64,000 nucleotides of DNA from positions 14,294,948 to 14,358,947 of the forward strand of contig NC_092673.1 of assembly GCF_964355755.1 (NCBI RefSeq), in the 5' to 3' direction. A program made the translations under genes and the position numbers. Numbering within the stretch: position 1 is the first letter of the stretch; each line of letters opens with the position of its first letter. The DNA comes from Antedon mediterranea. Taxonomy: Eukaryota; Animalia; Echinodermata. This document shows positions 1-64,000 of this stretch, in pieces. The notes beneath the pieces were generated by a model that made no database searches, had not been told where the DNA came from, and saw nothing but the letters and a program-made list of their open reading frames with translations.

Positions 1-490
1 CTTATTGAAAAACATCTGAGGAGCTGGACTAAGAAGAGTTAGATGAAGGGGGTCATATCCTAGAAGAAATCCTCTAGAATGAGGATAAATTCATACATGT
101 ATGCATTTAGTGTAGAACTATTAATCTCAAAATTATATCATTGTTTACAAAATCATTCAATATGATAAAAGGTAGATAACTAAACAATGAAGTAATATCC
201 TAGTGTATTATTAATAACAAAGATCGGCACAAACATTTTATGTCATGAAATATATTAAATTAAAAACTTGGAAAGGGCACATACGATACGATAAAACTTT
301 ATTGTCACAACGGCAAAATATACAGTTATGAGATATAGGTCCTTAAGTACACTCAAGTTAGTATAAATAACCTGATAGCTGATAGAATATATGTATAGTA
401 AGTAAAAAGAGGGAAAAGTTTGTAATTGAGATTGAAGCTCCTGTTCTGAATTACTGTCAAGAAGAAGCAGAATATTGTCATACGTGTATT

Positions 491-953
491 ATGGAATACG
501 CTCCATAAAGCCATCAAATACAAGAATTCTCGGCTTACTCTTCGAGATGGACTGCATCTTGCAGTAGGAATATGCTTCTTTACCACGATGGTAACCACTG
601 GTTGGTAAAATTCAGACTTTGGTTCCATCTGCCATGCCGATGCTTCTTAAAATTACTTTAACATTAACGAAACTCTTGCAGAGTAACGCAAAGAACTCAT
701 GGCAGCTCACATAGGCTACGCACCAGAAGTCTTTTTTTTTACGAATTCACCACCTACATTTAAAGGTGACATTTCTAGCCTCGGAAATATGTTTCTGGAC
801 ATTATGGGACTATGTCTGAACATAGTACCTCTATGTAAACTCGGCAGGAAGTGTACACATACTATTCCAGAGTAAAGACCGACTATTTACTACATTGCCG
901 ACAAGCTGAAGAAGAAAACCAAATCTTGTGTATCTCAATGGTTTAATATCTGA
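491..953 (+). pseudogene. Protein kinase C-lobe remnant (subdomains V-XI)
   Basis: Hand translation gives SDFGS (~611-626), GYAPEV (~714-731), GDISSLG (~766-786) and CTHTIPE*RPT (~852-885). In-frame stops, frameshifts and a missing HxD catalytic loop. Confidence 0.8.
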
Positions 954-3139
954 TTTGTTGAACTTATGCAGACTTCATCAACCTACCTCGTAACTATCGT
1001 GCAATCTTACATATTTCTGTAAAATTTTTCAGCTAAAGCAATTATTACAATATAATCATTGTGCAATTTTAATGCAATAAATATATGATATATTTTTAAA
1101 ATGTTGTTTTGTTTACAAACATAATTGAAAGTCTTGTTATGTACCAATTATCTAAAATAAGACCATTGCCATTCTGGAGATCCACATAGACGCGCAGAGA
1201 CTATGGCGCGCCAAGTTATCTTTTATAAATACATCCATTAGTTATCTCTATTCAAAACTTAGATATACAGTAGTTAGATACTGTACATTTCTATTGATGG
1301 ATATTGATTGTGTATTAATCACTCAGTCAATCCGGCGAGATTGAGAAGAAGAAATATTAATATTGTATTTCTACATTTGTCTAATAATAATTTTTTTTTT
1401 TACATAATTGTAATTTGGCGTAGAAACATATGATGCTCACACATAGAAGCCCGTCTTAGGGACACTCCTGTTCAGGGGACACTTATATATATATGATTTT
1501 ACTGCCAACAAATATTTATAATTTGAGGGATCCAGATCGATCAATTGTTGTCACAGTGACACGTGTGTAGAGATACAGTAGAACCTCTTCTTTGAACTAG
1601 CTTACAGTTAGGCCTATCTTGGCAGCAGAACAAAAAAGAAGAAAAGTGATAAATGTTTGACTGAGCACTGTTGACATGCTGCTTACGAGTGGATTGTACT
1701 CATTACATTCTTTGCTTAATTATCGCCATTTGTGGTTTTTACTACATACTTTTTGTTTAGTTCTTTCTGATTTGTCTTATTAGCTTATTTAGAGACTATT
1801 TTGAACATCAGTTTTGCTAGGCCCTATCGTGTCTGTGTCTCCTTTGTTTACCATGCTGTACAAAGGACTGCACAGTGCTGCCAGCTCCTTTGTTTCTGGG
1901 CTTGGCTATAGGTCTGTGTCAGCCTATTAGTCATGTATTGCTATGCTTAGTTCTCGCCAACTCTTGTTAATAAGTTAAAACATTTTAAATATTTTTTGGC
2001 CTGTTTCTACGGGTTGTCGTGCTGGGAAACATGTGCACAAATTTGTGCGACTTCATCATTAAACACAAGGTCGATATATGGCTAACAAAGACTGTTATGG
2101 TGACCTCTAATAAAAAGTAAATTAGCACGGCGCTGAAACAATGTGCTTTAATCAAAAGTGAAAGTACTTTACTCTTACGCTTTTTTTCCCAAATTTTTTT
2201 TCCTTATGGTAAAATAATTTTTCAGATTTATAGGAGGGCGTGCGAAGGGTGCGCGCGCACCAACACCAGCCCCCCTGCATCTGTCTATTGCAGTAGTATA
2301 ACGTCATTTTTTAGGCAGGAACAGGATTGGTACCTATAAGAAGAACACTACAATTGCTAAATAACAATGTAATGCAGCCTAGGCCTGCCCTAACTAAACA
2401 AATATTAATATTATAATACCACACAGTGAGTTGTCTAGGCTAGTTATGGTCTAGACTATACTACAACTACTACTAATTAATTAAAGAATACAGTATATAA
2501 CCAAATATTTGCATATTTTAAAATATAAATCTTGTTCAAATTGTATTTTATATTAGGCTCATCGAGTACAGAGTTCACAGTCAGGTATTTCACATTATAA
2601 AAAAAACATAATCATTAAATAATTGTTTTAAATAATTAAAATATATTGTTTGATGTTAGTGTTACTTTTCGTGGTTGTGTTAAAATATAATATTTTGTTG
2701 ATACTTGTTTTTACTGATACTGTTTTATTGAATACTAATATGGTTTTTATAGTTTTCAAATTTTGCTAATTGTTTATTCAATTATTGTAAATATTAACAA
2801 AATTGACATGGACAGACACATGAATTTAAGAAGGCATTTTTGCTATTTATTAACAACGGTCATATATACAAGGGAAACTCTTTACCATTGAACAGAATCT
2901 AAATACATTTGGATTTGGGTTGAAGTTAAATATAATGATTTTTTTAAGGACATCTGCCACAATATTCCATTATATCAGGAATCAGACAGTGAAAGTGCCT
3001 ACAATAATGCAGATTATGTCCCCTCTATTGAAGAACGGTCTGACCCTTAATATTTGTGAGTTATGTTTTTTTTTCTCAATAAGTTCAAGTATAAAGATGC
3101 ACTGTTTCTAACATTCTTGCATGTTTTTTAGTGAGGACT

Positions 3140-4195
3140 ATGAAGCATCAGCACATACCGACAGAAGAAGTATCTTGTTGGCCAAGTGAACTAATGGCTC
3201 TTTTCGAAAGAAGTCGAACATGTGGAGGTGTAACAGAACGTAAAATAAAAACGAGAATGTAGCACTACGGTACAAATTACAGCCAAGTGCAAATCTTGTT
3301 GGTTTTTGAATGGTATAATCAGCCAAAACATGGCAACATGTTTTTATTTAAAATACTATTGTCAGAAAAAAAGAAACTTTTTCATATGAAAATAATCATA
3401 ACAATAATTTAACCAAATGACTCATCTTTTTTTTAATTTAGTAAATACAGTAACATTAAATTGCTTGATAATTTGATTTCACATCTTTTTTTTGCTGCCA
3501 GCTACATCATGTATTTTCTCAGCACAAACAAAAGGATCAATTTCAAAAGGAAGTGGATCTTTCTGGGGATATGAGGTGCGACTCAGAAAGTCGTCCATAT
3601 TGAAGTTGTAAAGCTTCTACAATAGTAAAATTTTAACTTTAAGATCGTGTTGGGTTAGGAGTGCATTTGAGATGATTTGTTTGAATGAATGCCTATTGAG
3701 CAAATTGGAAACTGGATACCATCAATTATTCGGATGGTATACTGGATCGTAAGTTCAAGCCCAGAAACAAAAATATAGTAGATGATGAAGAACTTGGGAA
3801 ACAGAAGTTTCAAACTATTTACAACCATGTGAGAGGTACTGTATACATAATCATGAAACACCTTTACACCCCAAGTGTCTCCATGAAGAACTGTCACCAC
3901 GTGATTATATCCTCCCTAGTAAGTTACTATATTTTTAAAGATATTAAATTGTAGATGTTCAGACCATAATTATTTTAGAGTAGGTCATGTTTCTAGTAAA
4001 TATTTTATTTCTTTTTAAGATTCAAAAGCTGATAAGACATTGTCAAAAGTGCTGAATTCCACTTATCTGCTGAATTCTGTAAAACAATTGTCACCTTCCA
4101 TCCAAACTTATTCATACGAGTCCTTCCATCAGGTAATCAACCATTTTGCCCCTAAGATGCACCTTTATCGCTTCAAGGGTATGGTTGCAAGGTAC
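3140..4195 (+). mobile_element. Kolobok-type DDE transposase remnant with introns
   Basis: LSGDMRCDS (~3559-3585), WIPSIIRMVYWIVSS...NHVR...HPKCLHEEL (~3700-3895), LSPSIQTYSYESFHQVINHFAPK...KGMVAR (ORF 4040-4261). I associate this motif set with Kolobok transposases; the superfamily call is from memory. Confidence 0.6.
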
Positions 4196-4775
4196 AGTAC
4201 TTTAAATTATTTATCCATAATATACCACTTTTTCTTATCAAGTTTATTATATTATTTTTAATATATTGCTGGTTTTCTCATTTTCAAAATATTCATTACT
4301 AAGATGCTTGATGTTACATTTGGTAAGAAAAATTAATTAAAATAGCTGTTTTGGAAAAATAAAACGTTATCTAAATATTGTGCAATTCGATTTAACACTA
4401 GAAAATGTTCTGCCAAACTCAAAGGCAAGGAAACTAGTTGAAAGGATGAAAAACCTCCGTCGCATCAATGAAATTAAAAATGTCATCAATAAACAATAAA
4501 TATTGTGATTCTCACGTATGCGCAACATAACTCTGATAGGCGCGTGGCTATGAATTTCGTAAAAGTGGCATTGAAAAAAGACATTAAGCTATTACTTACT
4601 TATCCAAGAATAAAAATATCAAAGGGACATGTAATTACTACTATGCTTTCGCGTCAATCAAAAATGTATTCCAAAATTCCTATCTCTGTAATGTAAAATA
4701 ACTTTTAGTGACGTCACATCAAGTTTTTTACAGGTTTCCCAGGTAGTATGACTATGGCAAGCTTAAAACTTTAAT

Positions 4776-6290
4776 TAAATGTTTAATATGACCAAATTAC
4801 TTGCGAAGTGGAAGGTAAACTCTTGTACTGTATGTCTTTCTTGGGATATCAGTTATACAGTACTGTAATGTATTTGTTTAAATAATAGGTCTAGACCCTG
4901 AGATATTAATATTATTTGTTTCTCATTTAAATAGACAAAGGTTAAAAAGGATGATGGTCATGCATAATGGTCATAATTGTAACACATTCTTATGTCTGAG
5001 TATGTGGTCATAAGTTACGTAGTATAAAGCGATTACTTTGACACATTGGTTTACTTCACTGACATAATCCCAATTTGCATTTGACATGTAACATTAATAA
5101 TTGCCGTTGTAGTTTTTGTAAGTTTTCTTCATACCGTAGTCTGTATCGGAAGCATAGAAATTTGCTGGGCTTGGAAGGTAATCATTTCAATGAAAACTAT
5201 GTCGAGGATAAAGTGGATGCAGATGCAGACTTTGATATGAAGCTTTATGGTGGTAATGATATAACAATCCCTGAAGTACTGAAAAAACATTTAGCATTGT
5301 TCATACTGAAAACAAAAGAGTATCATATCCTCCCAAAAGTGACATATTTGAAAATGCAATGTTCCTAAAGTCCATCAGTCAAAATAATCATGCTGAACAT
5401 TTTTTCCACCACCGGATACACTATTGATTGGAGAATTTTGGACAGAGAAGATAGAGAGTACCCCTGAATAGTACGGGAGGACATTTACATAAAAAAGAAG
5501 AAACGTTCTCTCAACCGTGACTTGAAACTAGAATTACCGTCCTTGTATAGTGGAATCTTCACAAATCCTCATAACACTCGTAGGATTCTACTGATGAAGG
5601 CACGTGAAACGTGACGAAAATCCCATGTATGTTAACTTTGTGCTGTAAGTTTGTTTAAAAAACACTTTACAGTTATCATTTAACTCCCTAAGTTCTGAAT
5701 ACTGGTTAAAAGAATTATTGTTTATCAAATTTGGCAATGGTTGAGTCACAAGAATGTATCCTTGGAGAGGAAATTAAAAATGGAAAAAAAGGGTTGTGCA
5801 TATCAGTATATTACAATTTTAAAGGGGTTAAAACATTATCTGGCTCAAAATGATGTTGGACAAGCACACATCAAGTGCAGAGTCAACATCCTGAGGTATT
5901 AGTTGGTTATACAAGTGGTACAATTTCACCAATAATGAATTTTTTCATCGTAATCCCAATGCATTATGGTTATTGTTGTTTGAGTCAAGATATAGAAGCA
6001 CTCTAAAAAATATCCATCTTGCACTCCTTGTTAGATACAAGCTACTGTAGTACATAAGTATGTACAAGGAAATCCTAAGGCCTTTGATCTCTGATCTAAA
6101 CATTTTGGAAACTACAGGCATTATACTGTACTTGTTAATGGACATCAGTATCATCGACTAGAATTTATTGGTAAGCATACCTGCTGATAACTTGTCAAGT
6201 CACTCTATTGGTGTGTTTTCTTGTAACCTTTGTTTATTTTGTCGATTTTGTATGGCTACTAAGGATGAAATTCAGGTCAATTTTGATGAA
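4776..6290 (+). mobile_element. CMC/EnSpm (CACTA)-type transposase remnant, family A, copy 1
   Basis: HLALFILKTKEYHILP (ORF 5075-5368), RYRSTLKNIHLA (~5988-6023), IPADNLSSHSIGVFSCNLCLFCRFCMATKDEI (~6177-6272), typical of animal EnSpm transposases. Many deletions and stops. Confidence 0.75.
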
Positions 6291-6471
6291 ACATTCATTG
6301 TAACACTAAACTGTCATGCATAATCATAAATTGTAAATTAATTAAATAACTTTTTGTTTTTATATCATTCACTAAAAAACAGCTATAATTGATATAACTA
6401 CACACTGACATGAAATAGAATGAAACAATTAAATATACTGTATAAAAAATATTTATATGATTTGCCCTTTA

Positions 6472-8160
6472 GGAAGCGTTTTACTGTAAAAGTGCAAGGG
6501 ATCGTCCGGCCACAGGTTACTTAGAGGAGCATATGCTATACATTCGCAAAAAAATGATAGATGCATCTACCTCTAGTAGTACAAACAGGAAAGTTGCATG
6601 TACAGGTAATTTACTTTACTTTTTATATCAGATTGTTATTTTTATTATAACATTTATTTATAATACATGTTTGCTATCCTTCTAATGTACAGGCGAATAC
6701 TAATTCAATGACAATTATTATTATAAAATGATTAATTCTGCAGTAATGTGTTACTTTTCTGCAGTAAGTAATCCACATCCTGAACCACTATCAGAAGAAG
6801 TACAACAGTGGATGGAACGTACATCAAACTACCGGTTTGAGTGGATCAAGAATAAAAGAACGCTCTATACAGGAAATTGTAAACAAATTTCCCAGACTTT
6901 TAGATGAGAGTATGGTAAGCCAAATTCAACATACTGTATATCAATAATATGTTCTTACCAGCTATTACATATCACTGCTCTGCAGACAATTTAATTTATA
7001 CTAGTTTTTTTTAAACTTGTGGTGTCAACTGCGCATGGAGTAATTAAAATACCTTTAGAAAATCGCCAATATTAGTTATTACCATTATGCTGTGTAGTTG
7101 TTAATGCTGTGGTCTGCTTTGCATCTTAGTTTTTTCTACATTCCTTTTTATAGATTGACCAGGATTTTAATTCACTCTATCCAGAAGTAAGTGATAACAT
7201 TTACAAAAAGTGGAAGGGGATGGTAGATTCAATTTATGAGTATGAATACCAGATGTGCCCTTTTTTGAGGGCAGCAATATGCTTATCACCTGAAAGCGAT
7301 TTAAAATTGTTGTCTCCAGGTTTTATGTTTTCAAAATTATGTTAAATACAATTTGTATATATTTGTATATTATCTACCTTTAATACGATGCTATTTGTAA
7401 AAATTGTATTAATGGAGAAGGTTGTTTAAGAATCTCATGGTAATTTGATTAAACATTCTTCATAGATCAGAAATCTATTTTGGGAATATTGATGATGCCA
7501 ATTCTATTTGACACGCCTAAGAAGCCGGCTAGTGTTTATTCAATCTTGCCTACATTTATAGATTCACGACGAGTACGTAAATATTATTATTTTTATTCGG
7601 GCAAAATGAGTGTAGTTGTACACGTCATATAATTTAACATAAGTATTTCTTTTACTATTTGTATTATTTTTTTGTTTTATGGACTGAATTCTGGAATATA
7701 AGAAGTTAATTAAAGTTAAATAAGGTTGTAAACAAAATACGTGATCAGACAAATATTGAAAGTGAATCTTTTAATGCTTAAGTGCAAACAATCATTTTAG
7801 AGTTAAAAGAACTTCATAATTATTATATTATATCCAGATTTGGTTTGCAATTAGTGCTTTATTTTTGTTTCTCCGGGAAATAATAAATATTGATCAATAT
7901 TTGGAAAATGTTTGTCACCACACCCACAGCCCTACATATTGGCTCTTGGAGCCGATAAGTTGACAAGTAAGGAACACTGTGTGGTTATGGAAAAAATGTA
8001 ATCAAGCAGCCTTCCCTGCTACAAGGCACACTTTGTGCTTGATTGTAACTACCAAATGCAAATGGGTTTGAAAGTTATTTTAAAGTTGTATTTATAAGCA
8101 GTCAAAAGATAAGGTTGAAAGTTCCTCATTGAGGGCTTTTTTAGGACTTATTTGAAATTC
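6472..8160 (+). pseudogene. SAMD3-like second ORF of the EnSpm element (multi-exon, decayed)
   Basis: Exon-like pieces separated by GT-AG introns: ATGYLEEHMLYIRK (~6510-6550), WMERT...VNKFPRLLD (~6808-6905), IDQDFNSLYPE...YKKW (~7154-7213), PQPYILALG (~7923-7950). Lies downstream of the EnSpm transposase, as in animal CMC elements. Confidence 0.65.
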
Positions 8161-10086: not shown

Positions 10087-11411
10087 CAGGGGCGCAGCCA
10101 GTGGGGGGGTCACGGGGGTCCTGACCCCCCCTTTTTTTTAGAAAAAATAAATAAAAACATGAGACAACAATACAGATCAAATCATCCTGGAGATACTGTG
10201 GAAGATTACTACCGAGCAGTATTACCAAATCAACTTCTTGATTACAAACCGAGTTAAAAACCCGTTTTTCTGCCGATAACAGGCCATGCTTTAAAATATT
10301 TGGCGTAGCACCCGAGTCTATAGTGAAGTGTAATGTTGAAGAAGTCTTCAAGGAACTTGAATTTGGTACGATGATCTGCCAAGACACGAACATCTTCATT
10401 CCGAGCTTCAGTGATGGAAGCGACTGTGTAAAATTAGCGGATCCAAATGTGTTCCCGAATGTGCGTGCACTTCTTCTAATCGCGTAGGCCTATGCCCGTA
10501 ACGTCTGCTGAAGCTGAGTGGAGTTTTTCGACTTTATGGAGAACGAAAACCTGTTTGGAAAATCACATGTCTTATGAGCAGCTTTCGGGACTGTGCCTCA
10601 TGAAAATACACTTTAACATGAACATTAATACAGAGAATGTCATTCGCGAATTCTGTCTCCAAGCCAAGAAGAATGTTCCAAACTTATGTTTAAAGATGCA
10701 TCACGCGATGTCAAGAGCGCCGTTATAGTAACTAACGTAAAATGTATGATAATAATTTAGAAGTTAGTTATTACAATTATGTATAAGCTATCACCTATAC
10801 TATACATTCGAACAAAATAGGTATATTTTTAAACAAAATATTGTATGTACTGGGTATGATAAGCGTCTCACATACACACGGAGCCAAGATAGCTTCTTGG
10901 ACTTGCACAGTGTATGAACTCCAACCTTACGGTTCTCATTTAATAACATCACTCCCTCCATGCTATCATTCTAATTTCTTTTTTCAAACTTTTGCATCTC
11001 TACGTTCATTTCATGCAACTTTTGTATTGGTGAAAAGGGAGGAATTCAAATAATTCCTCCTCTGAGTTTACAGCCTCTCTACACAAATCAACAAACAAGC
11101 AAGAAAAAAAGTGTTTGTCTGTGGCAGCCTGGAATATAAAAATGTTCTGTAATGAAAATGAGAGTTGTTTTTTGTTTTCTTTGTTTCAGTTTATTAGTGT
11201 TAACATTGTCATATTTGTGTGTGCGTAAACCGATTCAAATGATCTAGATTGCCCTAGACCGCCAAAGCTTCCAGGGGGCTTTGCCCCCTGGACCCCAACC
11301 GGGGGCCCTTGGCGGCCCCCTGGCCCCCAGCCCATGGTTGCTCGCTTCGCTCGCAAAATACTCACATATTGGTTGACCCCCCCCTTTAATTCTTTGCTGG
11401 CTGCGCCCCTG
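10087..11411 (+). mobile_element. Internally deleted hAT element with 15-bp TIRs and 5-bp TSD
   Basis: TIR caggggcgcagccag / ctggctgcgcccctg. TSD accgt at 10082-10086 and 11412-11416. hAT C-terminal dimerisation motif PVTSAEAEWSFSTLWRTKT...LSGLCLMKIH (10492-10728). Confidence 0.92.
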
Positions 11412-12107: not shown

Positions 12108-12508
12108 TTAGAAGTCGAGAAATTGAAAAGAAGAAATTTGGAGTATAAAGAAAGCAATTTAAAGGCTATGTTGGATAAAGAACAAGAGCTAAGGTAGAAA
12201 TCAGTACAAGAAACTACTTGTTCAGACCATATTCCAAAACTCAATTATAATGATTTTAATAATTTAAAAATGACAATTGGAAAAGGCACATTTGGAGTTG
12301 TGCGGTTGTATCGCTACAGAAACCAACGCGTTGCAATAAAACAGTTTAAAAATCCTAAACGTTTAAGAAAAGAGAATCTTCGAAAAACTATAATAAAAGA
12401 AGCTAATATGATGCTTTCCATTAAACCGCATCCCAACCTAGTAAAGTTTGTAGGATGAATACCATCTATGGACCCACCTAGTCTTGTTACGTTCTTTGTT
12501 AAAGGTAA

Positions 12509-13140
12509 TTACCATCCTTGTATAGTGGAATCTTCTGACTGACGTCATCAAGTCAGAAAAGGTCACCAATCCTCATAACACTCATAGGATTCTACTATTA
12601 AATGAAGGCACATATTAATCCAAGGTATATTGAATTTTGTGCTGTGAGTTTGTTTAAAAAACAGTTCACAGTAGATTTAGTACATCTACATTACAGTAAG
12701 TGAATAATGTAGAGTCACTTGGACAGGAAATTAAAAATGGAAAAAGGTTGTGCATATTATTTATTTCTTAGCAGTATATTCCCATTTTAGAGGTGTTGAA
12801 ACATTATCTGGCTCAAAATGATGTTTGGATAAGCACACATCAAGTGTAGAACGTCACATCATCCTCATTTATTAGTTGGTTATACAAATCCCCTTTTTTC
12901 TCCTTTACCATGCCACCTAGAGTCTGGGACGACTGAGTCGACACAACTTGTGCTGACCGAGGTTCAATTAGACTGATCCCTGAAAAGCGACGAAGGCGTT
13001 TCCCCTACTTCGGTTTGGGTTTTTTTTGGCATGGTTGGAATTTCCCTTTTTTCGTATTAGTTTATGTACATGGTACCAATTTCACCAATAATGAATATTT
13101 TAATCATAATCCCCATGCATTATGGTTATTGAGTCAAGAT
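12509..13140 (+). mobile_element. EnSpm family A, copy 2 (partial, with ~180-bp insert)
   Basis: Aligns by eye with 5534-5995 (tccttgtatagtggaatcttc; aatttcaccaataatgaat; atgcattatggttatt). Extra sequence at ~12887-13066. Confidence 0.85.
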
Positions 13141-13142
13141 AC

Positions 13143-14570
13143 AGCCCTTTTCCACGAAGTGCGAAACATTTACGAAAAGAAGAATTTAGCGGTAGCTCAC
13201 CTCCGTGATAAATGGGAAAGTCCGCTATAGCGCCCTCTAGTGGGACCACTCCCACGTAATACCGTCATCATTTCTTTTCGTATCGTCGTACTGACAACAC
13301 AAAGTTTTTTAAGAGAAGATTGGAATTCCAAGGAATTCAAGAGACTAATCAGAGTCAAGCTAGCCGAGGCTAAGTTTATCGTTTTATAAAGAATTAGATA
13401 CGTTGGAATACGTTGCCTCGTTTGCTTAAACAAGGCAGAAATGCCGTTCTTTATCGTTTAATTTGAACTTGACACGTTGGAAACCGTCAGAAATATTTGT
13501 AGAGTTCACCGGCTGAGTGTAGGCAACAAATAACAATAGAATATCAGTCAGGCGTATTGTAAACAACAAACTACTTACGCTAGGTTAAATAGGCTGTCTG
13601 TTAAACAGTATTGTGTGTCTGTTAGACAGGTGTTTGCCCGCCAGTATGCCAAAGCAAGAGTGCGTTCAGTGGGGCCCGCGTTCGACTGTAAAGTGAGATT
13701 GCCACATGCGATGCATTAAGTGCCGTACCTGTAGCCAAGGCGAGCCTTGCGACGTTTGCGTACGTTGGACTCCAGCCAAATTTGCATCGTTACCGCAGCT
13801 CATGGAACGTACTGTTGAAGATATTCCGGAGGAGACCGCGCCTGAGTGGTAGCTACACACGATGTCGTGCCACGCGAGGAAGAGCCTCTTGCGGATGAGG
13901 TTATTCTTGGCGCCGCGCCTGTTCCCGCTGCTGCCTCTGCGATCCTACTGAGTTGTCTCCGGCGATTCTGCATGCCATTGCGGCGGCGGTTAGGGCTATA
14001 CCAAGGGACAAGCCTGTGGTGGCCCCAGTTCAACGTCCTCCTATTCCGTACTATCCAGTGCCCCCTCCTCAGACACCACTACCACCTTTTTCTGAGGGTC
14101 CTCCGATGGAGGAAGGCTACTCAAGCGATCAGACTATGGTCACGCCTTGGATGAGGAGAGAGCCGCATCGCTTAGGGGCTCGGCGAGGAGGGATTACAGG
14201 CGCTCGTGAACAGAGTTCTTCCGGCGGTACTGGTATATCTGGGAATCAACTTCTCTCCTTGAGCCTAAGCCGACGCCTTCTACTAAACGGTTCTCGACTT
14301 TCGGCGTGCGTACACCGCTTAGAAAAAGTACTACCTGTCCGGTGGTGCCTCTCGACCAGGAGTTGGTCGACCGCTTAGATACGTTTGCTCGCGATTCAAC
14401 ATCAACACGTCGAGCAGCACCGTACGACGATACGAAAAGAAATGATGACGGTATTACGTGGGAGTGATCCCACTAGAGGTCGCTATAGCGGACTGTCCCA
14501 TTTATCACGAAGGTGAGCTACCGCTAAATTTTTCTTTTCGTAATTGTTTCGCACTTTGTGGAAAAGGGCT
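13143..14570 (+). mobile_element. DIRS1-like retrotransposon derivative: ~149-bp inverted terminal repeats around a gag-like 5' remnant
   Basis: 13143-13291 is the reverse complement of 14422-14570 with a few mismatches. From ATG 13646: MPKQECVQWGPRSTVK*DCHMRCIKCRTCSQGEPCDVCVRW (Cys/His cluster like the DIRS ORF1 N-terminus), then a Pro-rich GC-rich region. No RT or tyrosine recombinase (YR) sequence, no TSD seen. Confidence 0.7.
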
Positions 14571-14919: not shown

Positions 14920-15830
14920 GTATCTATAATAGCTCTGGGTGAATCAATGAAGCGGGAGGCGATGTTGTTTGGGAAGCGGAGAAAAGTACACGACTGAGTT
15001 GCGGTCTATTCGGCGCATCGTGCCGGTTGCCAGCTTTGTCAAAGTGGTAGCAGATTTTGAGGCGTCGATGTATGCGAAATGACTGGATGCTTTATTTCAT
15101 TATACACAGGTAAAAATACAAATTTTTGTTATTTTAGCATTTCCTTTTTTTTTCATCTTTCAACTGTGCTGCACTAAAAATATGTTATAACAACAATTAT
15201 TTCATTTCCCTGTTTTTTCTTATGTTCCTATCTTTAACTATGCTGCACCAAAAACTAAACGCTGGAATAATGTTATGTTATGCATGTTTTCTTATCTTTC
15301 TCTTAGGCTATCATTCGCAAGGTCCAAGAAGTTGGCCTTCCAACACGTCTACATGCAGGAACCAAACACCATTTTTTTTGCCAGTGGAGCATGTACATGC
15401 TGTCTTTCATCGTCTGGAACAGGTTGCAGGCAACTCAACACTAATATTGGCAATGATGACGTACATGCGGATTTATGAAGATGTTTTTACTTCTATGGAT
15501 TGGACTGTTTTTCGGCAGCAAATCAAGACAAACATTGATGTAGAAGGGTAATCACCACACCAATGTCTTAACCAAAAGCAAAGAATAGTAAGAATAACTT
15601 CAAACATTCATTTTGTCAACAGCTTAGTTTTGTCTTTCACATGCGTATTGTTTTTTTTTTATCCACAGCTAATGTACACTTCTACTTACTCTGTAAGGGT
15701 TGACGGTTTCGATCCATGCAAAGTTGGTTGGCAGCGAAGAAGACATACAGAACCAGTCATGCAATACTGCACGAGCAACGGATCGTCTGAACCAGTTGTG
15801 GGTCGAATACGTCCCATAACTACTTATTAG
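14920..15830 (+). mobile_element. MULE/Mutator DDE transposase remnant (catalytic region, with introns)
   Basis: VVADFEAS and FHYTQ (~15044-15108), intron, AIIRKVQEVGL (~15307-15340), LPVEHV...DWTVFRQQIKTNIDVEG (to 15548). Confidence 0.85.
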
Positions 15831-19005: not shown

Positions 19006-19034
19006 AAGTGGCAATACAAGACTTATTTTATTTA

Positions 19035-47910: not shown

Positions 47911-47919
47911 GGATTAAAC

Positions 47920-48299: not shown

Positions 48300-49260
48300 A
48301 GCGGGAAGCAGTATGATCAATCGAAGCCAATCAAGCACGGATTTAAAATTAGGACACTCGCGGATTCCATCTCTGGTTATGTATACAACTTCGCTGTTTA
48401 TATGGGACGATTTGGCAATCCAGACCACCGCGATCTCGAACGTAGAGCAATTCTGAACCTCATCACTCCAGACCTTCACAACCTCAACTACAGATTGTAC
48501 TGCGACCGCTTTTTTACATCGATGCCACTTACAATAAATCGGGATATATTGCTGCGGAACTGTTATATGCGATCGACAAGAATATTCACCATCACTCAAA
48601 CAACATGAAAACAAACTTGGAGCGTGGAGAATTTCATTTCGCGAAACATGACGACGGGATGTGTGGATATGCGTGGAAGGACAAAAAGCTAATCTACTTT
48701 CTGAGCAGCGCACATTCAGGAGATCTACCCCTAACGGCCGTGATGCGTAATATAGATATCCGCGGAAATCGTACCAACATACCATGCCCACAAGCCACCG
48801 CAGACTACAACAAATACATGGGAGGGGAGATCATGCAGATCAAATCAAGTCGTACTATGCAGTCAACAGGAAATCGCGTCGCTGGTATATGCGTCTCTTT
48901 TGGCAATCATTCGACACTTCCATATCCAACGCCTTCATTCTACATACAGAAACGCGACCTGCCGCAGAAAGACATTCACAAATCCAATTTCGCTATAAAA
49001 GCTCACGGAAGAATTAATCGGAGGTTACAGCTCACGAAGCACAATAGGACGTCCCCAAATAGCCCATCCTATACGCACAGACCCAGGTCACCAGCACACT
49101 CTCACCGACCTGAGGCCAGTATTTCCAAGGAAGCGTCGCTGTAGTGTATGTCTTCAAAACAAAACAAGACATGAGACCTTCTATGGTTGTGCAAGTTGCA
49201 ACAACACACCACTGTGCAACCATGTTGGTCGAAACTGTTTCGAAATCCACCACAGAAACA
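48300..49260 (+). mobile_element. piggyBac transposase (PGBD4-like), C-terminal two thirds, frameshifted
   Basis: KQYDQSKPIKHGFKI..LADSISGYVYNFAVYMG, LYCDRFFTS, WKDKKLIYFLSS, DYNKYMGG/DHADQ, RWYMRLFW, and a Cys-rich tail RRCSVC...CASC...LC...CFEIHH. Confidence 0.95.
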
Positions 49261-49439
49261 TTGAAAACTGAACATTTCCCTCGCAGTTTTAGTTGGAAGC
49301 GTCTTCTTTTAGTGTTCAGAGGTCAGAGGGCTTGTGAGTTGATAGCTATTTTTAAAATGGTGAAACAGTCCGGCTTCTGAGTTAGAAGAACTGCTCCATC
49401 TTCAATTGTGAGTACAACACACTACAGCACACTTACAAC

Positions 49440-50656
49440 ATTGGGTCATGTTGAAGCCTACTCGTGGCGGCCCTGTTACGTCGTACTACACCTGATGAAC
49501 CTGTATGGCAAGCTAATTCAACATGAAGATGAATGTGAAAAGTCAATGGTGAACACTGAACATTTTATATAAAGTCATATAATATATTTGTTTATTTCTT
49601 TCAACTGTAGAATTTGGCATTGAAGGGATACATCTCATTGTAGAAAAACTCAATGAATCAATAACAGCTGCCAATGTATCTCAAGACGAGTTAGATCTGG
49701 AATGGAATCTCTTCAAGAAAAGAGGGGTATTTCTAAACCCCGCAAACCCCCAAAAAAACATAGCAAACCCAACCGAACCAACATAAAAGTGATTGAATTA
49801 TGTAGTATACAACCCACTTGGTATATCCATGTAAAAAAAAAATGAAATTTCTACTGTACATATTAAATCATCATTATATTAAAATTCCTAAAATATTTTT
49901 TCCACACTACCGAAATAAAAATAAATGTTCTGTTTCTTGGTAGAAAATCTTAAATCATTAATAATATTCTTGCAGGAGGCAATAGTAATAATAAATACAT
50001 AAATTAATTTGCTACACTTTCAGGTACAGCAATATTATCCAGGCCAAATGGGAAGAAATCATCCCTTCAATTAAAGAAGAACTTCCCAACATTTCTTTAA
50101 TGGACCTAGCAGTCCCAGCCAGCTCTTCTGAAGCTGAAAAAAGGGGCTTTAGCAGAATGAAACAGCTCAAAACTATATATAGGTCATGTCTTCAGGATGA
50201 TCGGGTCACTGACCAGATGGTCATAATGATGCAGTCTGGTAAAATTTCACAATATGATCTGCTACCTGCAATCAACTTGTGGAACAGTTTCAGTGGAGTT
50301 ATCAGAAGTACTGATAAAATGGAAGATGATTCACAAGACGAAGAGCAGGAATCAGATCATGAGGCAGACTTTAAAATGTATGACAGTGACAGTGACTTTT
50401 GAATTCTCTTTTGTGTGCAAAACAAATTTAAAATTTGAAAAAAGAAAATGTTATTAGTAAAACATAGTTGTTCATTGAGTTTTCTTATAAAAAGATCAAT
50501 TATCTTTAAATTGCTACTGCACTGTTATGCTGAGGGTCGAATGAGTATACTAAATGATTTATGTTTGGAAAAAATTAGTAAAAACTAGTAAAATAGTGTA
50601 TGGGCTAGTGAAATGCCCAGGGGGCTAGTAACATGAAAAAGATAAATCGAGCCCTG
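49440..50656 (+). mobile_element. hAT transposase 3' part (ZNF862-like) with right end
   Basis: LEWNLFKK (~49696-49720), PASSSEAEKRGFSRMKQLKT.YRSCL (50100-50402), gggctagt subterminal motifs and terminus tcgagccctg at 50647-50656. Confidence 0.85.
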
Positions 50657-51067: not shown

Positions 51068-51435
51068 TCATAGTAATACCATGTCTCCACTCTTAACATC
51101 AGCTACAATTTCCTCCAATTCTAAAAATGATACCTCATATTCTCCATTCTCCAGATCATACCTAATGCAAAATTCCATCCCTACCATGTCTGTAAGCGTT
51201 CCATCCCACCACTTTTTATCAGAGTCGCTGTCATTCCAGAGGTGTTTAATTTTTTCCCAATCAAAAGTTCTGGTTTTTTGTTCCTTCAACTAATGTGCAA
51301 TTCTGACCAATTTCAAAACAGCTCCATTTGTTAGTTCTTTGTCTGTCAGTGCATTAAGGTTGCCGCGTTGAAGGTCTGAGACCAAAATACCAATACTGGT
51401 ACAATATGGCTTAATATTCATTTCGTACAAAACTG
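51068..51435 (-). pseudogene. Last exon of a gene ending in a Tudor/Spindlin-like domain
   Basis: KIKHLWNDSDSDKKWWDGTLTDMVGMEFCIRYDLE...LEEIVADVKSGDMVLL*. Minus-strand acceptor near 51433; one stop at 51291. Confidence 0.5.
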
Positions 51436-53489: not shown

Positions 53490-54814
53490 GCAGTAAATGA
53501 AATGCTTTTCTCTCATTGTTTGCTGACCAATCTACAAAATGGCAATCGTATAGATCCAATTGACGACTTGCGATTTAAGCACATTCATCAACTTTATCTC
53601 CTTCGTGAGAAAACCAATAGTACTTGGTCGACCGTTGTAACTTGGTTGCAGGACCTTCATAGACCAAACTTTCCTGAGAACAGTGGAGATGGTAATCAAT
53701 GGAGATGGTAATCAATGGAGATGGTAATCAATGGAGTCTGAGAATAAAAAATCAATGGATGTGGATCTTAAAAGAACGAACAAGATTGTTGAAGAGCAAG
53801 AGCCATCAACCAGAAAAATTTAAAGCCTGGGAGGAAAGAGTGTACACCTTTCCAACTCCTGCAAGCTCTCGTCCTCCAAAAGAAATTATACATAATTCAG
53901 AAGAAGACCTACAGCAGGAGATTACTGATTTAAAAGAAGAAATCAATTTTTTACAAGAACGACCATCACCTCACCAACAAGATGTCCAGAAACGAGGAGA
54001 AGACAGAAATAAAAAGAGCAACAGAGACCTGCGAAGGCAAAACAGCAATCTTCTAGAAGAGCAAGTCAACTTAAAAGCAAAGTTAGGCAAGTCAAGAATC
54101 ACAAGAAAGAAAATGCTGGCTGTAGTTCAAATGATGGTGATAGTATTGAGTTGCTACAACAAGAAATAGTAAACCTACAGCAATTATGTGATGAGCAAAC
54201 TACACGGATCACTTAGCTTCTTGATGCTAATGCCGAATTAAAAGGTACGAACGAGGAACTCAGCAAGACAAAAACTTTCCAAATGAAGGATGAGAAAGGC
54301 AGATACAAAGATGTTGTGCATCCTTGTGTTTGGAATCTTTTAAATTGTCATGTGAGTTTTGGTAATGTTGGTGGTTTATGAATATGTTAAATATCAAGTC
54401 ACAATATTTCAGAAACCCAAGTGAGAAACATGAATAGACAGCGACTGATTGTAGCGCAAAGGCATATCGGCACATTAACCGGGTTACAAAACACCACTCT
54501 TGGAACAGATGAGACACCTAAAGCAGGAAACGTATATGACTTACACAATAACGGATGAGGAGCAAAACTCGTATATTCTAGGACTAGGACTACGACAGCT
54601 GGTTTCTAAATCATCCGCACATACACTGAAGACTGTTCTGTGCGATTTAACAGACATCTGTAACAGCTACAAAGAAAACAAAGAGGAAAAGTTTTTTAAC
54701 GAGCGAAACAACTCTGATTTTTGTCATGAAACACAATCTGTGCCGAGACACAACAAATTACCAGAGGTTGTTGATGACTTTAAAAATGGTGATCTAACAA
54801 TAGTTATCAATTAA
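53490..54814 (+). mobile_element. Unassigned DDE-type transposase remnant, internally deleted
   Basis: Coiled-coil N-terminus, GRYKDVV..CVWNLLNCHVS, NTTLGTDET (first Asp candidate), YILGLGLRQLVSKSS.HTL...L.DI, then a jump to the C-terminal VVDDFKNGDLTI*. A 16-bp x3 tandem at 53684-53736 shifts the frame. Confidence 0.55.
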
Positions 54815-55069
54815 AAACACACTGCTAAATGTACCACACATTTCTGTTAAAAAAAAAAAAAAATTCCAAACCCGAAACCTAGAAATACCGGGATGGTGTC
54901 CGCGGGGGATGGTTTGACCACTTGTAAATACAGTTATAATTTTGTTTGTGTGTTTGTACCAAAGGTCTACAGTTTCCGATCTAAAGTAATAATAATATTG
55001 ATTTAAAGTTTTTTAGGCATAGTAAATGTTTTTTTTTTTTTAACTACATTTTATTGAGTTTAAATATTT

Positions 55070-55815: not shown

Positions 55816-56139
55816 AGTAATTAATCATTTCTAATTAATTAATTACTATTTTATTTCAGTTTTACCTTTTGTTTTATAGTACTTCAGCTATTTTTACAAT
55901 AGAATCCAAGACTGCTTCGATTCGGTGCACCCGCGTCTCGCGAAAAAGAACAACAAACCAGAGGGGTCCAAAAACCGGAAGTAAAAGGTCAACTAAATAA
56001 GCCAATAGGCTAACACGTGGTTTGTCCATTTAAATAACAGGGTACGCTAACGGAAAATAATTACGTGATGGAAATGTTTTGAAAAGCTACCCAAGTTTAT
56101 AAAATAGCAGCAGGACTAGTCCATTTGTGCATAATACAA

Positions 56140-56600
56140 TTTAATACTTGGAGTCACGTTACAAAATAACTTAAAATGGGATAAGCATATTGGGGATATT
56201 GTCCTCAAGGCTAATAGGAAGATTTTTATTTTAAGGAGTCTAAAGAAATTTGGCTTCAACCCTGATGAACTATGCTCTGTCTACTGCGGGTATATTAGAC
56301 CCCTCCTTGAATATGCCGATGTTGTATGGCACCCCGGCTTAACCAAATCGCTTAGCAACTCTATAGAATCTGTCCAACGCAGAGCATGCCGTACCATATT
56401 GGGAAGGGATTTTAGTTCGTATGACAAAGCTCTAAAGGTCTGTAACATCTCATCCCTTACTGATATGAGAATAGCTCACAGTCTCAAATTTGCCAAGGGA
56501 ATATCTCAGACTGTTCATTCTGCTGATCTTTTACCGGTGACACGGTTTGAAAGTCATGGGAGGTTGCTCCGTAATAAGAATAATAATAATAATAATACAT
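56140..56600 (+). mobile_element. CR1/L2 LINE ORF2 C-terminal remnant
   Basis: LGVTLQNNLKWDKHI..KANRKIFILRSLKKFG...YIRPLLEYADVVWHPGLT...IESVQRRACRTILG. Confidence 0.92.
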
Positions 56601-57703
56601 AGTTTATAGGGGTGTAAAATACGGTTAAAAAGTTGGCATTTAAACCCAATTGGCGTCACAGTGTAATTTTCCTATGTATACTTATGTGCTTTTTAATATA
56701 TACCTTTTTTTTTTAAATGATAAACATTTTTGTTACCAAAATGTGTCTATCATCATTAATGTGTTTTTTTCTGTGTGTTTATTAATATTATTATTATTAT
56801 TAATTTAAAAAATAAATGTGAATGTGCAGGGGTGGGAAGGGGGTTGGCAAAAATACAAAGACAATGTAATCAAACAAAGTTAGGCATTAATCCATGGTTT
56901 AGGCCTAGGCCTACATGCAATGGAAGTAAAATACATCATACAGAGTATTATTAAAATTCCCCTCCCCAATATTCAAACAATTCAATTCAAATCAGGGGGG
57001 GGGGGGGTTTTGGGAGACACGCGTGCGGTCACGTGAATAATCCGGGGGGAGTGGGGGACACAGCGCGAACTCGGGGACATGGCACAGCGCATTATATTAC
57101 TTGTATTGTGTATAAAAAATTGTTTGTAAACTACTATACTTCTTGATTGGCTGACTGTATTTATCTCTGATTGGTTCGTATAATTTATTATCAATTAGGG
57201 GTGCCAGTGTAAAAAAATGGCGTTGATGGCAGTATTTAATTTATAAATATAATTTATTTTAGTTTTCATGGAGGAAATTTATTTTGTACATGGTATTACA
57301 CTAACATGGTAATTGGTATACCGTAGGCCTATGACTATATAATATATATAAGGTCTATATATATAAGTATTACAGTATATTTAGCGATAAAATCTTATTC
57401 AGTACATCTTTATTATAATATAAGCCTCAATTATTGATGTTAATAATACAAATAATATTAGGTCTAGATAATTATTTTTTGGTCTATTATAGCCTACCAT
57501 TTTAATAATATAACATGCAGTTATATTTTTTGAATATTATTATTGAACTTGCCTTTTGATATTAATACTAGTAGTTGCATAGACAGACTGGTAATAAAAA
57601 AGTATACACTAGAGTTTTGCTATCGCTATCTGTTCAGAGTCCCGTGTTTTTCGTTATCAAAACTTAGGTTAACGTGTTATGTTAAATGACATTAATTTTA
57701 GAT

Positions 57704-59991: not shown

Positions 59992-60904
59992 CCGTATTTT
60001 CCGGAGTATAGGTCGAGACTTTGTGGGAAAATTTTAATTGCAAAATCGGGGGGTCGACTTATACTCCGACCATACGATTTTTGAAAAAAATCAGGCCGAA
60101 AAAATATGTTCAAAAGCCGTCAGCTGTCAAGGCCCAGCAAGGTCAGTGGCCTATCATCAATCACTCACAGAAGTTTTCAATTTAATACCTACAATTACAT
60201 TGTACAAAATAATACAACTCCAACAAGTACTGGTCAATAAAATATTAATATATCACAATGACTCATTTTGATGTTAATATTACGCTTTTAAGATAATTAA
60301 GAATAAATAGTTTTCTTTATGCTTCTTATTCACTCTCGCGAAAACATCGTAACACACCACAGACGTCGGAATGTCCATGCAGCATGTTTGTAATTGCGCG
60401 ATATTTTCATTTATACACATGCGCAGTTTGTTTGTTTGTTCGTAATTACAATTACTGCGCATGTCTATTCATAAAATAAATTCTCCTTAGTCGGGCGCGT
60501 GTACATTTACAGATAACGCAATTTACAACTACTCGCCTGTACAACAATTAATAAGCTTCCTAATGGAAAACTCGTTTTAATTTATTCGAGTGACGCGAAA
60601 AACATCGCTGATGGCAAGTAACGCTACATCGCTGTCATTTATTATAGGCTGGTGAAGACGGCGGCGAAGTCGTCGTCATTACGTCCGTCCGATATTGATT
60701 AGGCCTACACTTTAATAATATAAACAAACAACCACATTTCATACATTTCTAGCCCTCTTTGAACTTTAAAGTAAGTTGTGTTATTAGCCGATTTTGGGGG
60801 GTCGACTTATATTCAGGTCATACCAAAATCAACGATATTCTAGGCCAAAGTTGGGGGTCGACTTACTGTATACTTGGGGTCGACCTATACTCCGGAAAAT
60901 ACGG
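59992..60904. mobile_element. Tigger/pogo-type MITE
   Basis: Perfect 25-bp TIR ccgtattttccggagtataggtcga, TA TSD (59990-59991, 60905-60906), internal ggggtcgac(t/c)ta motif x4. Confidence 0.95.
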
Positions 60905-61720: not shown

Positions 61721-61842
61721 TCTCTCCAAGTCATTCCCCACCCCACATAACACCACCCCCCCCCCCAAAAATAACCCCTCCCCCCACCCTGACTCCCTAC
61801 CCTATCTGGTATCTCCTCCCAAATAGGATATTACAGGTTGAC

Positions 61843-63848
61843 GGGTAGTAACAAAGTGCGAGGCAGCGAGGCACGCGAGGCAGGGAAGGCATGCAAGGCA
61901 AGTCAGAAATTTATGCGAGGCATCGTTTTACCATCATCAAAAAATGCGAGGCATCATTTTATCATTTCTCAAAATTGCAAGGCAGGAAATCACCGAAATT
62001 GAAGTAGGCCTAGCCTAAGCCTAGGCTAGTTTCCTTTTGCATCTGCCTTGTATTTTAACCAACTTTATCCTGAATACCACAGCTTAGAATTAGTAGGCCT
62101 ACTTTAATGAAGAAAAATCACATAAAAGTAACAATAAATCCATTAAATTGGTGATTTTACAGACGTTGTTTTTCTCACATTTCGCACACTCAATGTTCAA
62201 TATTTTGGTTTCTATGGAACGCCAAAAAAGCAAAATTAATTAGAGGGCTAAAAACTCTGTGGAATCAATTTATATTTTTATTTTTTCAGTACACGCGCGC
62301 CTACTACTGATACTGTAGATTCATCGCGTACTGTCGGTAAACACAAAGGACGTCGCATAGTACTACTACTACTACACTGACGATGATGCCTTCCCTGGGC
62401 ATCATGGGAATTAGGTCAAACTTGTAACCAGGAAAAAGTTTCAGTACACGTGCGCCTACTCTACTGATAAAGCGATACTGTAGCTTCATCGCTAAAGGTA
62501 AGAATCGCGTACTGTCGGTAAACACAAAGGACGTCCCCTTACAGTACACTGTACTATGCCATACAATCTTTACATACATTACATGTTCGTTGTATCATAC
62601 GGGGTGGTACGTACGACGTGTGAGATTAAATTAATTTTTAATATTAACTTTCGTGGGAAGATAGATTTTAATTTAATGCAATAATACTGAATTTTATAGA
62701 AATTTGTGAAATCGGGAGATATATTTAAAATTCGGGAGACCGGGAGGTGATGTTAAAATTCGGGAGACTCCCGGATAAATCGGGAGGGTTGGAACGTCTG
62801 GTTATCAAATTTGGAGTAAAAATACAAGCGAAGGAAACTAGCGCCAGGTTTATTAGTACGTACATGGACAACAATAAATAAAAATCGTTCGTAATATACC
62901 TAGCTTACTAAAACAGGAATAGTGTATCATTATTAAATATTACACCAATTATTATTTTATCAAAATTGATTAAATTATTTTCTACATAGGCCTCTTATCT
63001 AGGTTAGGGCTAAGCATATTAGCTAAAGTTTAATTTTAGGCCTAGTATTACAAGTCTTTTTTCACACGCGCTCCAGAATTCTGTCGCAATTTTTTTCTTT
63101 GCGGCATGTTATTGGATCGGCACCTTTTATTCACCGCCAGTTATTGAACTTGTCCTGGCAATCGCTGTTCACCGTATTTGCGAGAGAGGTACACGTGTTG
63201 TTCCTAGAGAATGGAATGTCAAAAATGTCTTTGGCACGCCGCTCAGAGAGAAGTCTGTGCGTTGCTGCTGAAACCACGTGCTATAGGAGGGGAATGCACC
63301 ACAATCCTCTGAGCTGAGGGCTGAATCATTCCGCTACCTGCTAAATAGTAAAGAGGGATTTTCCATCTCTCGGGTCTACCGGATCTAGGCGCAGGGGTGT
63401 GATAAAATATTATTTTCACTCTGCTATGTTCGAGAGACATGTGAGTGAACACGCTCGAAATGCCAACAAACATTGCAGTCATTTGATGAGTGTGTCGCTA
63501 TAACAATTATTGTTTATCGAAAGTTGAAGACTGTCGTTCAGATTTTTGAACCGTAGTTTGGGCACTTTTGTAAAAGTAAAATTTGATACGATATGACTTA
63601 AATGAAAAAACAATCGTTACATAAAAATAAACAACATGATGAGTGTATACACGAATCTATTTAGATACGCTTGTATCGATTGATTATTAGACCTATAATA
63701 TAGCATAATAGCACGTTAAGATATGCCTCGCACCTTTTTGAAATTGTAAACTATATGCCTCGCATGCCTCGCACTTTTGGAAATGATAAAATGATGCCTC
63801 GCACAAATATTTGGCATGCCTCGCTTGCCTCGCACTTTGTCAACACTC
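61843..63848. mobile_element. Non-autonomous MULE-like element with repeat-built TIRs and 9-bp TSD
   Basis: TSD caggttgac (61834-61842, 63849-63857). Ends gggtagtaacaaagtgcgaggca / tgcctcgcactttgtcaacactc. ~130-bp TIRs made of gcgaggca repeats. Confidence 0.88.
62712..62800. mobile_element. Isolated hAT-like terminus nested in the MULE element
   Basis: Five cgggag motifs ending in gggagggttggaacgtctg; no partner end found. Confidence 0.5.
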
Positions 63849-64000
63849 CAGGTTGACACCCAAATAAGATCTTCAAGAAATGAGCCCTATTATACTCTTA
63901 TTTTACCAATTTTAAAATGGCCACTAAAATCCCCCAGGGGAAGGGGATTCCTGTAAATTTTGTCGTCCTCATTCCCGAACATCAGTTGGACAACATATTA

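What the first reader, a model, noticed from the sequence alone, without database searches (positions are those of the whole stretch)
1..64000. Candidate flamenco-like unistrand piRNA cluster built mainly from DNA transposons
Seen: about 30 coding remnants from at least 14 unrelated TE groups (EnSpm, Kolobok-type, hAT, P, MULE, Merlin, Sola1, Harbinger, piggyBac, pogo, DIRS, BEL, Penelope, CR1/L2) read on the + strand. This includes young TSD-bounded nested insertions. Only about 3 read on the - strand (8715-9050, 45190-45480, 51068-51435), and there is no intact host gene in 64 kb. Known: cut-and-paste elements generally insert in either orientation, and Drosophila flamenco accumulates TE fragments antisense to its single transcript, mostly LTR elements. 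Inference: this locus is transcribed on the - strand as an antisense TE library feeding PIWI silencing. One dominated by intron-containing DNA transposons in a non-insect invertebrate may be undescribed.
Basis: partly seen in the sequence, partly recalled or inferred. Interest (0 to 1): 0.9.

Follow-up and report, generated by a model that had tools for sequence, protein, structure and literature searches.

The report
One-way transposon graveyard in feather star
In 64 kb of DNA from what is likely a feather star, nearly every recognisable broken jumping-gene piece points the same way, the layout expected of a locus that would make transposon-silencing small RNAs from the opposite strand, but those RNAs remain untested.

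Summary
The strand bias is real. A Pfam scan of 293 plus- and 301 minus-strand stop-free segments found transposon domains from 8 elements, all on +. With homolog searches, 15 independent insertions from 11 groups are tool-backed on + against 1 on - (p=5e-4). TSD-bounded hAT-, piggyBac- and P-type insertions also face +. A LINE here is 98% identical to an Antedon mediterranea protein, so the host is likely a crinoid. Best reading (0.55): a unistrand piRNA source transcribed on -; transcription and piRNAs are untested. It fails the flamenco-like definition (no Gypsy found). This scan noted the same layout in other genomes (18 notes), including a sea urchin. Candidate new member of a known kind.

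The parts
2980..3900 (+). Kolobok-type transposase remnant, frameshifted
   Evidence: read by eye from recalled motifs translation; no Pfam hit
4768..8150 (+). EnSpm/CACTA remnant A (transposase 4991-6320; likely second ORF at about 6760-8150)
   Evidence: profile of homologs P0146/P0159, E 5e-14 and 7e-15; P0159 carries Transposase_21 and DUF4218; second ORF by eye only
5405..5581 (+). Penelope-type GIY-YIG 3' fragment nested in EnSpm A; repeated in copy C at 18345-18416
   Evidence: profile E 1.5e-21 and 1e-7; homolog P0036 carries GIY-YIG
   Evidence: recalled motif and AATAAA-rich end seen; no BLAST or HMM support
10087..11411 (+). hAT-type element, 15-bp TIR, 5-bp TSD
   Evidence: Dimer_Tnp_hAT E 2.4e-6; TIR and TSD
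12198..12455 (+). protein kinase pseudogene fragment with in-frame stops nearby
   Evidence: Pkinase E 4.5e-9; PDB kinase hits; sequence
12480..13142 (+). EnSpm composite copy B
   Evidence: same-strand match to copy A, 69-81%; tblastn 6e-5
13143..14570 (+). DIRS-like element with 149-bp inverted terminal repeats
   Evidence: ITRs 95% complementary; orientation from a recalled gag zinc-knuckle motif only; a composition score favoured the minus frame
15330..15590 (+). MULE transposase C-terminal remnant
   Evidence: by eye, recalled motif; no Pfam hit
17192..17326 (+). OTU-like protease fragment
   Evidence: Pfam OTU E 0.014, weak
17845..19016 (+). EnSpm/Penelope composite copy C
   Evidence: 74-84% to copy A, same strand; profile E 6.5e-11
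19050..19560 (+). P/THAP9-type transposase remnant
   Evidence: TNP-like_RNaseH_C E 1.8e-3
20090..20440 (+). MULE N-terminal remnant
   Evidence: by eye, recalled motif; no Pfam hit
21900..23050 (+). LINE ORF1 plus start of the endonuclease
   Evidence: by eye; 6 of 6 PDB hits are exonuclease III-family proteins or the related Crc protein, E 0.45-2, weak
26700..26800 (+). RING finger fragment
   Evidence: zf-C3HC4 E 0.0013
26960..27365 (+). Merlin remnant 2
   Evidence: same-strand match to Merlin 1, E 8e-13 protein, 73-83% DNA
28250..28700 (+). Sola1-type transposase remnant
   Evidence: by eye, recalled motif; no Pfam hit, no Atlas hit
30377..30640 (+). Myb/SANT-like ORF of Harbinger type
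   Evidence: by eye, recalled; no Pfam hit
31430..32240 (+). second Myb/SANT-like remnant
   Evidence: by eye, recalled; no Pfam hit
32718..33717 (.). non-coding high-depth repeat; its second copy (about 40700-45100, split by the P element) is inverted
   Evidence: inverted matches 71-85%; depth
33990..34620 (+). LINE reverse transcriptase remnant
   Evidence: blastp E 6e-6 against 28 homologs; tblastn 0.005
34840..36800 (+). Merlin remnant 1, coding pieces split by GT-AG introns
   Evidence: DDE_Tnp_IS1595 E 8.4e-4; splice signals in sequence
37560..39760 (+). EnSpm remnant D
   Evidence: Atlas: best three of 30 hits score 0.96, none of the 30 with a common Pfam family; nearest named cluster DUF4218 0.88; recognition value below the tool's 2300 mark; pairwise E 0.013 to P0159
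38824..39549 (+). non-autonomous piggyBac-type insertion in EnSpm D, TTAA TSD, 13-bp TIR
   Evidence: orientation from a recalled N-terminal motif
40890..43877 (+). P element with THAP domain, TIRs and 7-bp TSD
   Evidence: TNP-like_RNaseH_C E 4.3e-3; THAP E 0.035; TSD
   Evidence: no Pfam hit; depth
46930..47900 (+). Harbinger transposase remnant
   Evidence: DDE_Tnp_4 E 1.2e-8 and 4.3e-3
47944..48096 (+). BEL/Pao C-terminal fragment
   Evidence: DUF5641 E 8.7e-11; link of DUF5641 to BEL/Pao is recalled
48280..49270 (+). piggyBac transposase remnant
   Evidence: DDE_Tnp_1_7 E 5.7e-10, zf-Tnp_2 E 8.2e-6
49990..50400 (+). hAT C-terminal remnant
   Evidence: by eye, recalled motif; no Pfam hit
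51068..51432 (-). likely terminal exon with a Spin/Ssty-like tail; the best counter-oriented remnant
   Evidence: acceptor and frame; pairwise E 0.005 to P0031; composition score; no homolog found
53550..54815 (+). internally deleted element of a Spin/Ssty-tailed family, read as a DDE transposase
   Evidence: tblastn E 1e-41 to P0030; Spin-Ssty domain on P0030; transposase reading from recalled motifs
55979..56607 (+). young LINE 3' fragment ending in a TAA run
   Evidence: 98% to Antedon mediterranea RT protein P0002
57700..59400 (+). pogo transposase, internally deleted
   Evidence: HTH_psq E 7.3e-8, HTH_Tnp_Tc5 E 3.5e-4
59992..60904 (.). Tc1/pogo-type MITE with TA TSD
   Evidence: 27-bp perfect inverted match; family label recalled

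Best explanation
The window is a gene-free-looking pile of transposon coding remnants that almost all face the plus strand, and it is likely part of a unistrand piRNA source that would be transcribed on the minus strand, so that its RNA is antisense to many transposase and reverse-transcriptase mRNAs. Shown: the orientation bias, the family diversity, nested insertions with intact target-site duplications facing the same way, and one non-coding repeat family present in both orientations. Inferred: elements insert either way; copies antisense to the precursor give silencing piRNAs and are kept, sense copies are lost; later deletions reduce each to a fragment. The promoter would lie to the right of the window, either its own or read-through from a host gene.
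For: 8 of 8 Pfam-detected elements on + from strand-balanced input. Tool-backed 15:1, p=5e-4; with by-eye calls and all three reader minus:3, p=2.7e-5; DNA transposons alone 11:1 tool-backed (p=0.006) and 19:1 with by-eye calls (p=4e-5). Purine excess on + in 28 of 32 2-kb bins, p=1.9e-5. Protein-like segments 25 + vs 4 -, against about 8 vs 3.5 in 10 local shuffles. TSD-bounded hAT-, piggyBac- and P-type insertions face +, so the bias is not only ancient. The one non-coding repeat family with two copies has them inverted, as expected if coding content is what is selected; n=1. AATAAA is not depleted on - (113 + vs 110 -), which argues against simple poly(A)-signal avoidance. Precedent: a slug cluster makes piRNAs from the strand opposite dense TE fragments (PMC11615739); sea urchin gonad has clustered piRNA-like RNAs matching DNA transposons (PMC13666137).
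Against: Transcription, its direction and piRNA output are inferred from layout alone, and 'antisense' is circular until RNA is seen. No genome was held, so there is no background: the window was picked for its bias out of perhaps thousands, and the tool-backed p of 5e-4 would not survive that. Ten of the 25 plus calls rest on recalled motifs that Pfam did not confirm. Tool-backed plus calls against all three reader minus calls give 15:3 (p=0.0075), compatible with a 65:35 intron-type bias (P=0.078). The purine skew is as strong outside my annotated intervals (0.036) as inside (0.041), so it may be mutational or replication-linked. Most remnants are badly decayed, whereas molluscan clusters are reported to favour young elements (PMC6128900).
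Confidence: 0.55

Rival explanations
1. The window lies in a very long intron of a minus-strand gene or in a long non-coding RNA, and sense insertions were purged because their splice and poly(A) signals disturb that transcript; no piRNAs are made.
For: Antisense bias of TEs in genes is well known (PMC1391917; PMC3088655). Many elements here carry introns, and donor-like AGGTAA is commoner on + (33 vs 12, one of 13 motifs tried), so sense copies could disturb splicing. 15:3 fits 65:35 (P=0.078).
Against: [quoted passage not shown] 25:3 under 65:35 has P=0.004 and DNA elements alone 19:1 have P=0.002. AATAAA is not depleted on -. Mean intron length in a feather star is 2.7 kb (PMC13079724).
Confidence: 0.22
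2. Chance plus ascertainment: a TE-rich heterochromatic window whose one-sidedness comes from selecting the most extreme of many windows, local duplication and easier recognition of plus-strand frames.
For: No genome background available. Local same-strand duplications exist (composite A/B/C; 26286-26964). Ten plus calls are by eye.
Against: The blind Pfam scan alone gives 8:0, and the extra read-through scan of the minus strand found no TE domain. Duplicates were counted once. The composition skew is window-wide.
Confidence: 0.13
3. Orientation is set at insertion or capture, not by silencing: for example targeting linked to a fixed replication-fork direction, or a giant mobile element that captured fragments in its own orientation.
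For: Non-TE fragments (kinase, RING, OTU) also face +, as captured pieces might. The skew outside annotated remnants fits a fork or transcription asymmetry.
Against: It needs one mechanism acting on 11-15 unrelated groups, both DNA and retro. Insertions have their own TIRs and TSDs. No helicase or carrier hallmark was found in the Pfam scans, and the non-coding repeat occurs both ways.
Confidence: 0.1

Closest known systems
[quoted passage not shown]
   Same: Non-insect invertebrate; densely packed TE fragments on one strand, piRNAs from the other.
   Different: piRNAs are shown there and untested here; TE classes of the slug cluster were not in the passages read.
flamenco and flam-like clusters of Drosophila (PMC10643416; 12 of 20 passages)
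   Same: Long TE-dense region with most fragments facing one way.
   Different: Their bias is driven by Gypsy and they act in ovarian somatic cells; here no Gypsy was found, 19 of 25 are DNA transposons, and the tissue is unknown.
piRNA clusters of the pond snail Lymnaea stagnalis (PMC6128900; 4 of 4 passages)
   Same: Enriched in DNA transposons such as Kolobok and hAT5; the window holds a Kolobok-type remnant (by eye) and a hAT-type element with a 5-bp TSD.
   Different: The passages report no orientation analysis, and snail clusters favour young elements; most remnants here are decayed.
Planarian type A (Seed) piRNA clusters (bioRxiv 10.64898/2026.01.28.702291; 12 of 16 passages; supplements not seen)
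   Same: One-strand clusters depleted of genes and enriched in antisense TE sequence in a non-insect.
   Different: Enrichment is for LTR elements; DNA transposons there were raised mostly in sense orientation in type B clusters.
piC-DoGs, read-through piRNA clusters downstream of genes (PMC11615739)
   Same: Dense antisense TE fragments in a long transcript; a possible origin if a host gene lies to the right.
   Different: No flanking gene could be seen, as no genome was held.
Antisense TE bias in introns (PMC1391917, 12 of 23 passages; PMC3088655, 9 of 9 passages)
   Same: Same direction of bias relative to an inferred transcript.
   Different: Weaker, and weakest for DNA transposons; PMC3088655 left DNA transposons out.

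Membership tests
flam-like unistrand cluster (van Lopik 2023) | TE-dense region with strong strand bias | tested here: met
   15:1 tool-backed, 25:3 overall; about 53% of the window annotated
flam-like unistrand cluster (van Lopik 2023) | Bias driven by antisense Gypsy elements | tested here: not met
   No Gypsy-type domain in Pfam scans; only a BEL/Pao fragment and a DIRS-like element are of LTR type
flam-like unistrand cluster (van Lopik 2023) | Expression in ovarian somatic cells | not testable with these tools
   Needs tissue RNA data
unistrand piRNA cluster (general) | Uniquely mapping 24-32-nt 1U piRNAs from one strand | not testable with these tools
   Needs small-RNA sequencing
unistrand piRNA cluster (general) | Long single-strand precursor and promoter | not testable with these tools
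   Needs stranded RNA or CAGE and flanking sequence; no genome held
unistrand piRNA cluster (general) | Depleted of intact protein-coding genes | tested here: inconclusive
   Only broken kinase, RING and OTU pieces found; no tRNA or Rfam hit; short exons not excluded
piC-DoG / read-through cluster | Host gene upstream on the precursor strand with read-through | not testable with these tools
   Flanks unavailable
long intron with antisense TE bias | Moderate bias, weakest for DNA transposons; poly(A) signals depleted on the transcribed strand | tested here: inconclusive
   Full count exceeds 65:35 (P=0.004), the tool-backed 15:3 does not (P=0.078); AATAAA 113 vs 110

The most novel reading that the evidence does not exclude
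Echinoderms, reported to have lost envelope-carrying gypsy elements (PMC13172572 discussion), keep a flamenco-style one-strand archive aimed instead at cut-and-paste transposases of ten or more superfamilies, with antisense kinase, RING and OTU fragments riding along; this crinoid locus would be a master piRNA source for DNA-transposon control.
Probability: 0.3. Interest if true: 0.7.

Novelty: new member of a known kind. Interest (0 to 1): 0.45.

Why it matters
[quoted passage not shown] If confirmed, this locus would show that orientation-selected TE traps also act on DNA transposons in a deuterostome lineage, and that such loci can be predicted from sequence alone. The test is cheap: one small-RNA library. 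The layout itself is not new in animals and recurs in this scan's notes on other genomes.

Tried and rejected
Own genome: none held, so no background strand test and no flanks. Sequencing runs for 22500-32400: no RNA holder listed. Runs were laid on 21400-41300 (X1-X4) and 44100-64000 (X1, X2, X4); all are contigs. X1 (RNA only by guess) has depth that rises and falls with the repeats as in the other runs, apart from higher depth on the young LINE, and gives no strand or splice information; it was not used either way. Summed depth was low over most coding remnants and far higher over non-coding repeats; the tool warns this is not copy number, so it is a hint only. Homolog search for minus remnant 51071-51289: 0 of 8 candidates scored. 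Atlas for the Sola1 candidate: no usable hit. Metagenome scan with the hAT candidate 49995-50399: 1 of 261 stretches passed, a bacterial-looking ORF matched by chance, rejected. LINE profile and BLAST did not support 8715-9050 (one search used a different frame). EnSpm profile did not reach EnSpm D or 45190-45480. Pfam read-through did not confirm Kolobok, DIRS, MULE, Sola1, Myb or the second hAT. Weak Pfam hits on the 96-bp tandem repeat and unrelated hits with E above 0.004 on both strands were dropped as noise. tRNA and Rfam scans: none. No notes on this genome or look-alike stretches. PMC4662822 (12 of 15 passages), PMC7618676 (12 of 12), PMC13343488 (12 of 13) and PMC8538981 (7 of 7) added context only.
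Full report
Source. The window is AT-rich animal DNA. Its young LINE fragment is 98% identical to a protein labelled Antedon mediterranea, so the host is likely this feather star or a close relative. No genome was held. Contigs of public runs match single stretches of up to 2.6 kb, so the sequence is real DNA; none spans a whole laid stretch.

Is the bias real? TE domains came from 8 elements, all on +: hAT, P twice, Merlin, Harbinger, BEL/Pao, piggyBac, pogo. The minus strand was then scanned with stops read as X, except 16493-17168, and gave no TE domain. These long chunks are less sensitive, and the matching plus scans were targeted.

Homolog searches added more on +. EnSpm remnant A matches full-length Transposase_21 proteins. 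A Penelope GIY-YIG piece sits inside it. That composite recurs twice on the same strand at 69-84% identity, so I counted it once per family. Also supported: a second Merlin, EnSpm D, two LINE pieces and a Spin/Ssty-tailed element. This gives 15 tool-backed insertions from 11 groups. Ten more were read by eye from recalled motifs (Kolobok, DIRS, MULE twice, LINE ORF1, Sola1, Myb twice, non-autonomous piggyBac, hAT); Pfam did not confirm them.

On the minus strand, 51068-51432 looks like a real terminal exon, 8715-9050 rests on a recalled motif, and 45190-45480 has no coding support. Binomial tests: 8:0 p=0.008; 15:1 p=5e-4; 15:3 p=0.0075; 25:3 p=2.7e-5; DNA elements 19:1 p=4e-5. Two annotation-free checks agree: purine excess on + in 28 of 32 bins, and protein-like segments 25:4 against about 8:3.5 in shuffles. 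The skew is equally strong outside my annotated intervals, so it is not specific evidence.

Anatomy. Elements with intact ends and TSDs face +: a hAT-type element with a 5-bp TSD, a piggyBac-type insertion in EnSpm D, and a P element with a 7-bp TSD inside a non-coding repeat. That non-coding repeat has two copies in opposite orientations, a single hint that coding content is what is polarised. Merlin 1 carries GT-AG introns. Broken kinase, RING and OTU pieces also face +. No intact gene, tRNA or Rfam family was found; about 47% of the window is unannotated.

Mechanism. The best reading is a unistrand piRNA source read on the minus strand (0.55). Shown are the bias, the diversity and the nesting; inferred are transcription, direction, piRNA output and selection. 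A long intron is the main rival (0.22). [quoted passage not shown] The full count exceeds 65:35 (P=0.004) but the strict 15:3 does not (P=0.078), and AATAAA is not depleted on -. Chance with window selection cannot be excluded without a genome (0.13). Insertion bias or capture is least likely (0.10).

Comparison. It fails the flam-like definition, where bias is driven by Gypsy (PMC10643416, passages); it may still work like one. The closest case is the slug cluster with piRNAs opposite dense TE fragments (PMC11615739, passages). Snail clusters are enriched in Kolobok and hAT5 (PMC6128900, passages), coral clusters in LTR and DNA elements (PMC13343488, passages), and planarian Seed clusters in antisense LTR (preprint, passages). 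DNA transposons make up 34.7% of a feather-star genome against 15.9% LTR (PMC13079724, passages), so their dominance here may reflect background. I found no paper on crinoid piRNA clusters or on antisense-polarised DNA-transposon clusters in echinoderms (searches); the library lacks most subscription journals.

Earlier notes of this scan report the same layout in other genomes (18 notes), including a DNA-transposon array in an arthropod and a sea-urchin locus with read-through RNA. These are unchecked leads, not support. The sea-urchin note led me to PMC11615739 and to the read-through option.

Verdict. Observation confirmed, interpretation plausible but untested, novelty overstated. Candidate new member of a known kind; interest 0.45.

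Noticed in passing
window 12198-12455, 17192-17326, 26700-26800 (+): Kinase, OTU and RING fragments share the orientation of the TE remnants; they could be TE cargo or host pseudogene pieces that would give antisense piRNAs against expanded gene families.
   Followed up: partly
window 16423-17168 (+): 96-bp tandem repeat, 7.2 copies, 96% match, keeping a 32-residue frame on +, just upstream of the OTU fragment.
   Followed up: no
window 4768-6320, 12480-13142, 17845-19016: An EnSpm remnant carrying a Penelope fragment occurs three times at 69-84% identity: an old local duplication or a composite non-autonomous family.
   Followed up: partly
window 53550-54815 (+) and 51068-51432 (-): Pieces of a family whose full-length relative P0030 (1104 aa) has only a Spin/Ssty tail in Pfam; it looks like a poorly classified DDE transposase group.
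   Followed up: partly
window 10087-11411: hAT-type element with a 5-bp rather than 8-bp TSD; from recall this marks the hAT5 group, which is enriched in snail piRNA clusters.
   Followed up: partly
window 13143-14570: 1.4-kb element with 149-bp inverted repeats at 95% and no TSD, read as a non-autonomous DIRS; its orientation is the least certain of the plus calls.
   Followed up: partly
window 23051-26699 and 1-2979: Largest unannotated blocks; the first has an A-over-T skew like the coding remnants (0.083) and may hide more decayed elements or host exons.
   Followed up: no
window 61945-63803: High-depth non-coding element with about 40-bp inverted ends and no clear TSD.
   Followed up: no
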